Source: the human T2T-CHM13v2.0 reference genome, Homo sapiens
DNA: 64,000 bases
NCBI RefSeq assembly: GCF_009914755.1
Contig: NC_060930.1
Strand: one strand, 5' to 3'
Made by a program: the position numbers and the translations under genes. Positions 14,801-17,800 of the stretch are shown here, piece by piece. Below the pieces are notes generated by a model. It was not told the origin of the DNA. It saw only the letters and a program-made list of their open reading frames with translations, and made no database searches. The first letter of the stretch is position 1; the number at the start of each line of letters is the position of its first letter.

Positions 14801-17800
14801 GAGACAGACATTACATGGGGAAGGAGGCCGGGCGCAGTGGCTCACGCGCCTGTAAGCTTAGCATTTTGGGAGGCTGAGGTCGGCGGATCACTTGAGCTTA
14901 GGAGTTCAAGACCAGCCTGGGCAACATGGTGAAACCCTGTGTCTACTAAAAAATACAAAAATTAGCTGGGTGCTGTGGCGTGTGCCTGTGGTCCCAGCTA
15001 CTTAGGAGGCTGACGCAGGGGAATTGCTTGAGCCTGGGAGGTGGAGGTTGCAGTGAACCGAGATTATACCATTACAGTCCAGCCTGGGCAACAGAGCCAG
15101 AGACCCTGTCATAAATAAATAAATAAACAAACAAACAAATAAAAATGGTGGAGTCTGAAAAAGGACTGGGTCAGCAAGAATAAAAACACAAAACAGCTGG
15201 AGGAGCCAAGATGGCCGAATAGGAACAGCTCCGGTCTACAGCTCCCAGCGTGAGCGACGCAGAAGACGGGTGATTTCTGCATTTCCATCTGAGATTGGAG
15301 CCATGGCTTTGGAACAGAACCAGTCAACAGATTATTATTATGAGGAAAATGAAATGAATGGCACTTATGACTACAGTCAATATGAATTGATCTGTATCAA
15401 AGAAGATGTCAGAGAATTTGCAAAAGTTTTCCTCCCTGTATTCCTCACAATAGCTTTCGTCATTGGACTTGCAGGCAATTCCATGGTAGTGGCAATTTAT
15501 GCCTATTACAAGAAACAGAGAACCAAAACAGATGTGTACATCCTGAATTTGGCTGTAGCAGATTTACTCCTTCTATTCACTCTGCCTTTTTGGGCTGTTA
15601 ATGCAGTTCATGGGTGGGTTTTAGGGAAAATAATGTGCAAAATAACTTCAGCCTTGTACACACTAAACTTTGTCTCTGGAATGCAGTTTCTGGCTTGTAT
15701 CAGCATAGACAGATATGTGGCAGTAACTAAAGTCCCCAGCCAATCAGGAGTGGGAAAACCATGCTGGATCATCTGTTTCTGTGTCTGGATGGCTGCCATC
15801 TTGCTGAGCATACCCCAGCTGGTTTTTTATACAGTAAATGACAATGCTAGGTGCATTCCCATTTTCCCCCGCTACCTAGGAACATCAATGAAAGCATTGA
15901 TTCAAATGCTAGAGATCTGCATTGGATTTGTAGTACCCTTTCTTATTATGGGGGTGTGCTACTTTATCACGGCAAGGACACTCATGAAGATGCCAAACAT
16001 TAAAATATCTCGACCCCTAAAAGTTCTGCTCACAGTCGTTATAGTTTTCATTGTCACTCAACTGCCTTATAACATTGTCAAGTTCTGCCGAGCCATAGAC
16101 ATCATCTACTCCCTGATCACCAGCTGCAACATGAGCAAACGCATGGACATCGCCATCCAAGTCACAGAAAGCATCGCACTCTTTCACAGCTGCCTCAACC
16201 CAATCCTTTATGTTTTTATGGGAGCATCTTTCAAAAACTACGTTATGAAAGTGGCCAAGAAATATGGGTCCTGGAGAAGACAGAGACAAAGTGTGGAGGA
16301 GTTTCCTTTTGATTCTGAGGGTCCTACAGAGCCAACCAGTACTTTTAGCATTTAAAGGTAAAACTGCTCTGCCTTTTGCTTGGATACATATGAATGATGC
16401 TTTCCCCTCAAATAAAACATCTGCATTATTCTGAAACTCAAATCTCAGATGCCGTGGTTGCAACTTATAATAAAGAATGGGTTGGGGGAAGGGGGAGAAA
16501 TAAAAGCCAAGAAGAGGAAACAAGATAATAAATGTACAAAACATGAAAATTAAAATGAACAATATAGGAAAATAATTGTAACAGGCATAAGTGAGTAACA
16601 CTCTGCTGTAACGAAGAAGAGCTTTGTGGTGATAATTTTGTATCTTGGTTGCAGTGGTGCTTATACAAATCTACTCAAGTGATAAAATGACACAGAACTG
16701 TATACACACATTGTACCAATTTCAATTTCCTGGTTTTGACATTATAGTATAATTATGTAAGATGGAACCATTGGGGAAAACTGGGTGAAGGGTACCCAGG
16801 ACCACTCTGTACCATCTTTGTAACTTCCTGTGAATTTATAATAATTTCAAAATAAAAGAAGTTAAAAAAAAACCCACTATGCTATAAGTTAGGCCATCTA
16901 AAACAGATTATTAAAGAGGTTCATGTTAAAAGGCATTTATAATTATTTTTAATTATCTAAGTTTTAATACAAGAACGATTTCCCTGCATAATTTTAGTAC
17001 TTGAATAAGTATGCAGCAGAACTCCAACTATCTTTTTTCCTGTTTTTTTTAAATTTGTAAGTAATTTTATAAAATCCACCTCCTCCAAAAAAGCAATAAA
17101 AAAAAAAAAAACTATAAAAAAAAAAACAAAAAACAAAAAACAAAAAAAAAAACACAAAACAGTGCTTAGATTACACTGTAATGCACATCAAGTGTAAAGG
17201 ACACAGGTTTCAGCAAAGGTTATGAGACGGCATTAAGCAGGAGTGCTCAGTGTCAGTCAGCCTCCCATAGGGACGTGTTTGGGCAGCAGGAATGGTTGTT
17301 GAGGAGATGGGGAGATTCTCGCCGTACCCCAGACATGTCACTCTAAAACTCCACTATCATCACCTGATCTGGTTGCCTGTGTTGTTGCCAAAATAGCTTT
17401 CACCAGCCACAGGACTCTAACCCACGATACTCGTTCCAGCTACTTCTGGCTCCACCCCCCGGAACCACATCAACTCATTGGCCCTAAGTTATTATGAACA
17501 CACAGGAAGTCAAACTGCAATTAGGCAGCAACAGTATGTGTGTGTGCATGCATTATGCGTCATTTCCCATGATCCAAGGCCGGCCTGGCCAGCCTGACAT
17601 AACAAAGAAGTAGCTATGACTGTGAGAAGTGACAAAGGAAAAGTAATGGGACCTCACCTAGGCCAGACGGTCAGGGAAAGCTGCCCTCAGGATGGGATAT
17701 TTACGCTGGAGTCTGAAGGATGAGTAGGAGTCAGACAAGCAAAGACTCAGAGAATGACTGTTCTATCTGGATGGGACAGCATGTGTGAGAGCCTTGGTTC

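What the first reader, a model, noticed from the sequence alone, without database searches (positions are those of the whole stretch)
15182..15310. The ACKR4 retrocopy is a fossil of an L1-promoter-driven, spliced L1-ACKR4 chimeric mRNA
Seen: inside the 5' TSD come 2 nt (ct), then 95 nt of L1 5' terminus (15199-15293) ending ...ccatctGAG, fused directly to attggagccATG of ACKR4. One TSD pair brackets the L1 piece, the ORF and the poly(A), so this was a single insertion. Known: L1 continues GAG|GTACCG here, the L1 5'UTR splice donor near nt 97 that is used in spliced L1 insertions (SpIREs); as I recall, the ACKR4 coding exon starts a few nt before its ATG. Inference: a young full-length L1 upstream of ACKR4 acted as an alternative sense promoter and first exon in germline or early embryo, spliced onto the ACKR4 coding exon, and that chimeric mRNA was retrotransposed. 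A junction exactly at the donor argues against random template switching.
Basis: partly seen in the sequence, partly recalled or inferred. Interest (0 to 1): 0.9.

Follow-up and report, generated by a model that had tools for sequence, protein, structure and literature searches.

The report
L1-led ACKR4 retrocopy on chromosome 6
The ACKR4 pseudogene on chromosome 6 is a reverse-transcribed copy of a hybrid RNA whose first 95 bases come from the start of an L1 retrotransposon and are spliced onto the ACKR4 coding exon; it is a rare record of L1 acting as a first exon for a host gene.

Summary
Window 15199-15293 is identical to the 5' end of genomic full-length L1s and stops at the published L1 splice donor (G98U99). 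Base 15294 is the first base after a canonical AG acceptor of ACKR4 on chr3. [quoted passage not shown] The core reading holds: this is a retrocopy of a spliced L1-ACKR4 chimeric RNA that began at the L1 start site.

The proposed source is not found. No L1 5'UTR lies on either strand within 200 kb upstream of ACKR4 in T2T-CHM13. A lost or polymorphic cis L1 (about 0.55) and trans-splicing (about 0.3) both remain open.

I read all 95 CHM13 loci that carry the exact 20-mer ending at L1 nt 97 followed by something other than the normal L1 continuation. This window is the only L1-to-host junction among them.

My searches returned no paper describing it. It is a new variant of known kinds (SpIREs, chimeric-transcript retrocopies). 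Interest is moderate.

The parts
15182..15196 (+). 5' target-site duplication AAAAACACAAAACAG. The pre-insertion site reads ...GAAT|AAAAAC..., i.e. bottom strand 5'-TTTTT/AT, which resembles the L1 endonuclease consensus (consensus recalled).
   Evidence: only two occurrences in the window: 15182 and 17148
15197..15198 (+). CT dinucleotide between the TSD and the L1 leader. It stands where most genomic L1s listed have GG. It may be untemplated, or flank of the source L1 from a start site 2 nt upstream.
   Evidence: One search shows the two bases before GGAGGAGCC vary among genomic copies (GG, AG, GA, TG, CA, CG, GT, TT, CC, TC, GC).
15199..15293 (+). L1 5'UTR leader, about nt 4-97 in L1.3 numbering with one extra G in the G run at 15268-15270. 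It holds a 3-codon uORF (ATG 15211-15213, TAG 15220-15222) and the AAGATGGCC box at 15208-15216 (YY1 site by recall). It ends at the G98U99 donor.
   Evidence: donor from Larson 2018
15293..15294 (+). Exon-exon junction: L1 ...CATCTGAG | ATTGGAGCC of ACKR4. It is ambiguous within the AG at 15292-15293.
15294..15302 (+). 9 nt of ACKR4 5'UTR from the coding exon (chr3 135344896-135344904)
15303..16355 (+). Intact ACKR4 ORF, 350 codons plus stop. It differs from chr3 at 3 sites: Leu29 synonymous (15387), Ala51 here versus Val51 on chr3 (15454), Thr223 synonymous (15971).
16356..17117 (+). ACKR4 3'UTR, up to the cleavage site 17 nt after AATAAA (17095-17100)
17118..17147 (+). Poly(A) tail, 30 nt, with C at 17127, 17134 and 17141
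17148..17162 (+). 3' target-site duplication AAAAACACAAAACAG

Best explanation
ACKR4P1 is a processed retrocopy of a chimeric, spliced mRNA, not of the normal ACKR4 mRNA.

Proposed sequence of events:
1. Transcription began at or within about 3 nt of the normal start of a young L1, from the L1 internal sense promoter.
2. The L1 5'UTR donor G98U99 was spliced to the acceptor of the ACKR4 coding exon, skipping the native ACKR4 first exon.
3. The RNA was polyadenylated at an ACKR4 site.
4. L1 ORF2p then copied it in trans by target-primed reverse transcription into an ECT2L intron on chr6.

Shown: the anatomy of the insertion and both junction positions. Inferred: the splicing and the promoter.

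Most likely the two exons were joined in cis. The source would be a sense-oriented full-length L1 upstream of, or inside intron 1 of, ACKR4 that is absent from this haplotype. It may have been lost by drift or selection, may still be polymorphic, or may lie more than 200 kb away.

Taken together, a spliced chimera made in cis or in trans is about 0.88 likely. The cis version alone is about 0.55.
For: - The L1 leader is identical to genomic L1 5' ends (6 of 6 loci; 621 places with 3 or fewer mismatches).
- The leader stops exactly at the donor used by all SpIRE classes (Larson 2018).
- The ACKR4 part starts at the first base after a pyrimidine-rich AG acceptor on chr3. CCRL1 is published as a 2-exon, 5.29-kb gene (PMC3394994 table).
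- One 15-nt TSD pair, a TTTTT/AT target site and a poly(A) tail 17 nt after AATAAA enclose the whole insertion.
- The chr3 intron is unrelated to the leader: the local similarity is reached by 230 of 2000 shuffles.
- The 5' end of the copy coincides with the L1 5' terminus, where genomic copies also vary by 2-3 nt. L1 start sites scatter around the consensus start (Rangwala 2009, passages).
- The genome holds only two ACKR4 loci, chr3 and this one. The gene's only retrocopy is therefore the L1-led one.
- For cis, by inference: L1-driven transcription through the locus would itself supply ACKR4 pre-mRNA in germ cells. ACKR4 is not known to be abundant there (recalled). A sense full-length L1 hijacking the coding exon would also be prone to loss.
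Against: - No L1 5'UTR lies on either strand in the 200 kb upstream of ACKR4 exon 2 in CHM13. The only L1 pieces there are old or 5'-truncated, and the lowest L1 coordinate reached is 1874.
- No exact leader-type L1 lies on the chr3 + strand between 113.7 Mb and ACKR4. No exact GG-type L1 lies there nearer than 126.6 Mb.
- For the mirror-image gene-exon-to-L1 chimeras, 15 of 17 also lack a source L1 in the gene, and those authors favour trans-splicing (PMC13174262, passages).
- The exact annotated start of the ACKR4 coding exon was not checked against a chr3 gene table.
- RefSeq starts ACKR4P1 at 15263, inside the leader. I cannot explain this.
Confidence: 0.55

Rival explanations
1. The product RNA is the same, but it was made by trans-splicing. 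The 5' exon (nt 1-97) of an L1 transcript from elsewhere in the genome was joined by the spliceosome to the acceptor of the ACKR4 coding exon on a separate pre-mRNA. The chimera was then retrotransposed.
For: - No cis source L1 lies within 200 kb in CHM13.
- Both junction sides are splice sites.
- The mirror-image class, gene exons 5' of L1, mostly lacks cis source L1s and was attributed to trans-splicing (PMC13174262).
- One other locus in CHM13 carries the exact CT plus 95-mer, chr9 131821408 on the minus strand (L005). It could be such a donor. About 1 in 16 leaders would match CT by chance, so this is not significant.
Against: - Trans-splicing is rare and debated in mammals (review PMC13690279, passages).
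- It needs ACKR4 pre-mRNA in germline or early-embryo cells, where ACKR4 is not known to be abundant (recalled).
- Only one haplotype was searched for the cis L1.
Confidence: 0.3
2. There was no splicing. L1 reverse transcriptase switched templates from an ACKR4 RNA to an L1 RNA during reverse transcription, or the two RNAs were ligated before reverse transcription, as for U6/L1 chimeras.
For: Chimeric retrogenes made by template switching or by RtcB ligation exist (PMC6789731, abstract in the listing; Buzdin 2002, seen only as a reference). A 2-nt AG is shared at the junction.
Against: - The break would have to fall within 2 nt of an intron-exon boundary in ACKR4 and within 2 nt of nt 97 of a roughly 6-kb L1. 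My rough estimate for random breakpoints is of the order of 1e-7 (inference).
- No natural ACKR4 RNA species ends at the first base of exon 2 (inference).
- The upstream resemblance TTTCCATCTGAG / TTTGCCATCTAG is chance-level (230 of 2000 shuffles). It cannot have guided a switch, because the product carries the L1 version with the extra G.
- In known template-switch chimeras the 5' partner is copied from its 3' end, not from an internal position (recalled).
Confidence: 0.05
3. Two separate events produced the structure. Either an ordinary ACKR4 retrocopy landed in or next to a pre-existing L1 5' end, or an L1 landed next to it and a later deletion trimmed both to the present junction.
For: None specific. 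Nested insertions are common in this window's repeats (hub table).
Against: - The TSD lies outside the L1 leader, and the 3' flank after the second TSD copy is not L1.
- L1 insertions keep their 3' ends, not only their first 95 nt (established knowledge).
- A deletion ending exactly at a donor and an acceptor is improbable.
- There is no second poly(A) tail or TSD inside the insertion.
Confidence: 0.02

Closest known systems
SpIREs (spliced integrated retrotransposed elements; Larson et al. 2018, PMC5860796)
   Same: [quoted passage not shown]
   Different: In SpIREs the acceptor lies inside L1 (622, 790, 853, 976) and the element keeps the L1 ORFs. Here the acceptor is that of a host gene exon and no other L1 sequence follows. 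The RNA therefore had to be mobilised in trans.
mRNA/LINE-1 chimeric insertions (gene exons spliced to L1; Cell Genomics 2026, PMC13174262)
   Same: Both are single insertions with a TSD whose internal junction falls at splice sites between a host gene and L1. Both usually have no source L1 at the gene, so cis and trans splicing are debated.
   Different: The order is reversed. There, host first exons lie 5' of a near full-length L1. Here the L1 first exon lies 5' of a host coding exon. ACKR4, ACKR4P1 and ECT2L occur neither in the main text nor in the 4 supplement files held.
Retrocopies of chimeric or read-through transcripts (for example PIPSL from PIP5K1A-PSMD4) and SVA-F1 with MAST2 exon 1. 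Both examples are recalled; neither paper was read.
   Same: A spliced transcript joining two transcription units was retrotransposed and preserves the exon-exon junction.
   Different: Those join two host genes, or a host exon to SVA. Here the 5' exon is the L1 5'UTR itself.
L1 promoter-driven chimeric transcripts. The antisense-promoter class is well documented (PMC9396940, abstract in the listing). Sense-donor hybrids with host exons were reported by Belancio 2006, which is recalled; the paper is not held.
   Same: L1 supplies the promoter and the first exon to a neighbouring gene.
   Different: Those are RNAs seen in cells. This is a heritable DNA copy of such an RNA, and it is from the sense promoter.
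U6/L1-type chimeric retrogenes (template switch or RtcB ligation)
   Same: They are bipartite insertions within one TSD pair.
   Different: Their junctions are not at splice sites, and the 5' partner is a complete small RNA. The U6 pseudogene in this window (51556-51662, minus strand) has no L1 part.

Membership tests
L1-mediated processed pseudogene (retrocopy) | Intron-less copy of the parent's exon sequence on another chromosome | tested here: met
   Colinear with chr3 from 135344896 to the cleavage site. There are 9 substitutions and 1 indel in 1824 nt. chr3 and this window are the only two ACKR4 loci.
L1-mediated processed pseudogene (retrocopy) | Poly(A) tail at the parent's polyadenylation site | tested here: met
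   Homology ends at 17117, 17 nt after AATAAA. A 30-nt A-rich tail that is absent from chr3 follows.
L1-mediated processed pseudogene (retrocopy) | Target-site duplication and a T-rich endonuclease site | tested here: met
   15-nt TSD at 15182 and 17148. The bottom strand reads TTTTT/AT (consensus recalled).
SpIRE | Uses the L1 5'UTR donor G98U99 | tested here: met
   The leader ends ...CATCTGAG, and intact L1s continue GTACCGGG. Donor from Larson 2018.
SpIRE | Acceptor inside L1, with L1 ORFs retained | tested here: not met
   The sequence after the junction is ACKR4. This is not a SpIRE, although the donor step works like one.
L1 sense-promoter chimeric transcript (cis) | 5' end at the L1 transcription start | tested here: met
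   The leader starts at GGAGGAGCC, 2-3 nt inside the usual GGGGAGGAGCC start, preceded by CT.
L1 sense-promoter chimeric transcript (cis) | A full-length sense L1 upstream of the host exon at the parent locus | tested here: not met
   None in the 200 kb upstream in CHM13. A positive control with the same L1 query found L006 at 97.6% identity over 1596 nt. Other haplotypes and species could not be tested.
Template-switch or ligation chimeric retrogene (U6/L1 type) | Junction at arbitrary positions, with the 5' partner copied to its 3' end | tested here: not met
   The junction is at a donor and an acceptor. The L1 part ends at internal nt 97.
Functional retrogene | Intact ORF kept by selection, and its own transcription | tested here: inconclusive
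   The ORF is intact, with 2 synonymous and 1 non-synonymous difference. At about 0.5% divergence intactness is expected by chance (my rough estimate). One paper reports ACKR4P1 RNA in MYC-driven medulloblastoma cells (PMC8345409, passage). The 97/622 spliced 5'UTR gave about 7-fold over a promoter-less vector, against about 267-fold for the whole 5'UTR (Larson 2018).

The most novel reading that the evidence does not exclude
The L1 leader was joined to ACKR4 in trans. L1 RNA would then take part in spliceosomal trans-splicing in both directions in the germline: as an acceptor (the published gene-exon-to-L1 chimeras) and as a donor (this locus). L1 5' exons could thereby give a cap-proximal leader to unlinked host exons and have the product copied back into the genome. 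That would be a route to promoter-tagged gene duplicates that needs no L1 insertion at the parent gene. A bolder add-on is that the intact, one-residue-different ORF is a young, still-expressed ACKR4 paralogue.
Probability: 0.3. Interest if true: 0.7.

Novelty: new variant of a known kind. Interest (0 to 1): 0.5.

Why it matters
It is physical, heritable evidence that an L1 sense-promoter transcript using the nt-97 donor can capture a host coding exon in cells that contribute to the germline, and that the product can be retrotransposed.

In T2T-CHM13 it is the only such junction among the 95 loci with the exact donor-side 20-mer. The event class is therefore real but rare.

It mirrors the recently described gene-exon-to-L1 chimeras and shares their puzzle of a missing source element. 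It is a clean, young test case for cis versus trans splicing: the junction, the alleles that tell parent from copy, and the CT tag are all known.

It also warns annotators. Aligners overrun the junction into the L1 leader, and RefSeq starts the pseudogene 31 nt too early for a pure ACKR4 copy.

Tried and rejected
- Source L1 on chr3. BLAST of the retrocopy and of a full-length L1 (L048) against chr3 135145001-135355000 found no 5'UTR-bearing L1. Pattern scans for exact leader-type and GG-type L1s found none near ACKR4 on the + strand. Smaller requests extended the search to 200 kb upstream.
- L1 leader contiguous with ACKR4 on chr3: rejected.
- Microhomology between the L1 leader and the intron end: chance-level.
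- Other L1-nt97-to-host junctions in CHM13: none. The loci came (14 + 63 + 3 + 15 + 0 = 95). All were accounted for. Of these, 93 are L1-to-L1 (SpIRE types, other internal deletions, or a point-mutated donor), 1 is not an L1 5' end (L121), and 1 is this window. The scan needs an exact 20-mer and covers about 94% of random downstream sequences (my estimate), so older or mutated cases can be missed.
- Explaining the RefSeq start at 15263: no chr3 match longer than 12 nt. My local alignments overrun only to 15275-15282. This remains unexplained.
- Literature. Searching ACKR4P1 gave 1 paper, on expression only. Searching CCRL1P1 gave 1 paper, a table entry only. For ACKR4/CCRL1 with retrocopy terms, none of the 15 listed of 215 papers holds ACKR4 or CCRL1. 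Among the papers listed by the searches on L1 splice donor, chimeric transcripts and pseudogenes, I saw none on this configuration. Belancio 2006 and 2008 are not held. Okamura & Nakai 2008 does not treat L1-led retrocopies in the passages seen.
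Full report
**What is in the sequence**

Reading window 14900-17500 shows, in order:
- a 15-nt repeat AAAAACACAAAACAG at 15182-15196;
- CT at 15197-15198;
- 95 nt at 15199-15293 beginning GGAGGAGCCAAGATGGCC and ending CATTTCCATCTGAG;
- ATTGGAGCC followed by an ATG at 15303;
- a 350-codon ORF to 16355;
- a 3'UTR with AATAAA at 17095-17100;
- an A-rich tail at 17118-17147;
- the same 15-mer again at 17148-17162.

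The 15-mer occurs nowhere else in the window. The target reads ...GAAT|AAAAAC, which is TTTTT/AT on the bottom strand. That resembles the L1 endonuclease preference (consensus recalled). The structure is a single insertion of the L1 type.

**The 95-mer is the L1 5' end and stops at the L1 donor**

A search of the window's own assembly found the ACKR4 part at only one other place, chr3 135344885-135346002. The first ~112 nt of the query hit many L1 5' ends (40 of 166 candidates were scored). In 6 of 6 such loci that I read, the 95-mer is identical. In 4 of them it is followed by gtaccggg; the other two have ataccggg and gtagcggg.

The 97-mer including CT matches 621 places with 3 or fewer mismatches, against 0 for the reversed control. 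Larson et al. 2018 (PMC5860796, passages) name G98U99, in L1.3 numbering, as the donor used by all SpIRE classes. The leader ends at nt 97.

The leader carries GGG where the L1.3-like form has GG. In intact L1s the GGG form with the donor has 439 exact copies and the GG form has 85. The leader therefore belongs to the commoner form. By recall that form is slightly older, but I could not assign a subfamily.

**The ACKR4 side starts at an acceptor**

On chr3 the sequence before the homology is ...atcctgtattctctttgccatctAG|ATTGGAGCCATGG. There are 16 of 20 pyrimidines at positions -3 to -22, and the first exon base is 135344896.

BLAST and permissive local alignments overrun the boundary to 15275-15282, because the L1 end (TTTCCATCTGAG) happens to resemble the intron end (TTTGCCATCTAG). 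That resemblance is chance-level: 230 of 2000 shuffles reach the same local score. The window carries the L1 version with the extra G at 15291. The breakpoint is therefore fixed to within the shared AG.

A published table gives CCRL1 two exons over 5.29 kb and CCRL1P1 one exon (PMC3394994). I could not see a chr3 gene table, so the exact annotated exon start is not confirmed.

**Age and state of the copy**

From 15294 to 17117 the copy differs from chr3 by 9 substitutions and one 1-nt indel in 1824 nt. That is 0.49%, with a Poisson 95% range of about 0.23-0.94% (my calculation). Two of the nine are at CpG sites.

Against a human-chimpanzee divergence of about 1.2% (recalled), this suggests an insertion around or after that split. 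Constraint on the parent's coding part makes the estimate soft.

In the ORF there are 2 synonymous differences and 1 non-synonymous difference: Ala51 here and Val51 on chr3. At this divergence an intact ORF is expected by chance (rough estimate) and is no evidence of selection.

**Where is the source L1?**

I read chr3 from 135145001 to 135355000. I searched it with the retrocopy, with the leader alone at word size 7, and with a full-length L1 (L048).
- No L1 5'UTR is present on either strand in the 200 kb upstream.
- The L1 pieces there are old or 5'-truncated. The lowest L1 coordinate reached is 1874. The nearest + strand piece is an ORF2 fragment of 79% identity at 135339927-135340768.
- The same query recovered a control L1 at 97.6% identity over 1596 nt.
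- Exact leader-type L1s on the chr3 + strand come no nearer than 113.7 Mb. Exact GG-type L1s come no nearer than 126.6 Mb.
- The only other exact CT plus 95-mer lies on chr9 (L005). That is about what chance allows.

**Is it one of a class?**

I scanned CHM13 for the exact 20-mer ending at nt 97 followed by something other than the L1 continuation. Five pattern classes gave 14 + 63 + 3 + 15 + 0 = 95 loci. All 95 were accounted for:
- 60 are of the SpIRE97/622 type;
- 4 are SpIRE97/790;
- 2 are of the 97/976 type;
- the rest of the L1-to-L1 group are junctions into the 129-bp L1PA4 segment, other internal L1 positions, or point-mutated GTACCG. L1-to-L1 loci total 93;
- 1 locus is not an L1 5' end at all (L121);
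- 1 is this window.

ACKR4P1 is thus the only L1-nt97-to-host junction found. The scan needs an exact anchor and covers about 94% of random downstream sequences (my estimate), so diverged older cases could be missed.

**Mechanism**

Both sides of the junction are splice sites, so splicing is the economical explanation. A template switch or ligation would need two independent coincidences, and no natural ACKR4 RNA ends at the first base of exon 2. Insertion next to a pre-existing L1 is excluded, because the TSD lies outside the leader and the 3' flank is not L1.

The 5' end of the copy sits at the L1 terminus, where genomic L1s also vary by 2-3 nt. L1 start sites scatter around the consensus start (Rangwala 2009, passages). 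That points to the L1 promoter rather than read-through.

The chimeric RNA encodes no ORF2p, so it was mobilised in trans, like any processed pseudogene.

How the two exons met is open. I favour cis from an L1 allele absent here (about 0.55). L1-driven transcription would itself supply ACKR4 pre-mRNA in germline cells, the gene's only retrocopy is the L1-led one, and such an allele would be prone to loss.

Trans-splicing (about 0.3) is supported by the missing source. It is also supported by the mirror-image chimeras of PMC13174262, where 15 of 17 lack a source L1 in the gene (passages).

**Comparison with what is known, and novelty**

The locus shares the donor with SpIREs but fails their defining acceptor-in-L1 feature. 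It is the reverse arrangement of the published mRNA/LINE-1 chimeras. ACKR4, ACKR4P1 and ECT2L do not occur in that paper's text or in its 4 held supplement files.

Searches for ACKR4P1 and CCRL1P1 returned one paper each, with no structural description. None of the 15 listed of 215 papers for ACKR4/CCRL1 with retrocopy terms holds either gene name. Among the papers listed by the three searches on L1 donors, chimeric transcripts and pseudogenes, I saw none on this configuration.

Belancio 2006, which by recall reports L1-donor hybrids with host exons in ESTs, is not held. A precedent there cannot be ruled out.

I rate it a new variant of known kinds. It is a neat, young and apparently unique fossil of moderate interest, not a new mechanism.

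**Open points**

RefSeq starts ACKR4P1 at 15263, inside the leader. Nothing on chr3 explains this. It may be alignment overrun, or a cDNA that carries the leader.

ACKR4P1 RNA has been reported in MYC-driven medulloblastoma cells (PMC8345409, passage). The leader alone is expected to be a weak promoter: the 97/622 spliced 5'UTR gave about 7-fold over a promoter-less vector, against about 267-fold for the whole 5'UTR (Larson 2018).

Noticed in passing
window 15263 (RefSeq start of ACKR4P1): The annotated pseudogene starts 31 nt upstream of the true ACKR4 homology boundary, inside the L1 leader. No chr3 sequence within 200 kb upstream of ACKR4 matches those 31 nt beyond 12 nt.
   Followed up: partly
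window 15275-15293 versus chr3 135344879-135344895 (L002 1495-1511): The last 12 nt of the L1 leader resemble the last 12 nt of ACKR4 intron 1 (TTTCCATCTGAG versus TTTGCCATCTAG). BLAST and local aligners therefore overrun the junction. Shuffling shows this is chance-level (230 of 2000).
   Followed up: yes
window 15182-17162 within 7159-30917: The retrocopy lies in the sense orientation inside an ECT2L intron, between the exons at 7046-7158 and 30918-31080 of the hub table. It sits about 50 nt downstream of an Alu with an (AAAT)n/(CAAA)n tail.
   Followed up: no
window 15211-15222: The L1 leader gives the chimeric mRNA a 3-codon upstream ORF (ATG GCC GAA TAG) ahead of the ACKR4 ATG, which sits in a GCCATGG context.
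   Followed up: no
window 51180-51700, minus strand: The annotated U6 pseudogene (51556-51662) has an A-rich tail and is followed directly by an Alu with its own poly(A) tail and GGAAAATTCTAG repeats. BLAST found no L1 part, so it is not a U6/L1 chimera.
   Followed up: partly
chr3 135327479-135331006 (L017): About 14-17 kb upstream of ACKR4 there is an L1 of about 94% identity with an inverted 5' half: minus strand for L1 1874-3601, plus strand for L1 4229-6021. This looks like twin priming, and it has no 5'UTR.
   Followed up: no
L119 (chr3 42257067), L120 (chr4 178943739), L122 (chr10 9488642): In these loci L1 nt 97 is joined to other internal L1 positions. In L048 coordinates these are about 598, about 302, and a point in the 129-bp L1PA4 segment. 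They could be further SpIRE-like splice classes or simple deletions.
   Followed up: no
L121 (chr6 49050272-49050293): The exact L1 20-mer TTTCTGCATTTCCATCTGAG occurs with non-L1 sequence on both sides. A 20-mer match is unlikely by chance, and its origin is unexplained.
   Followed up: no
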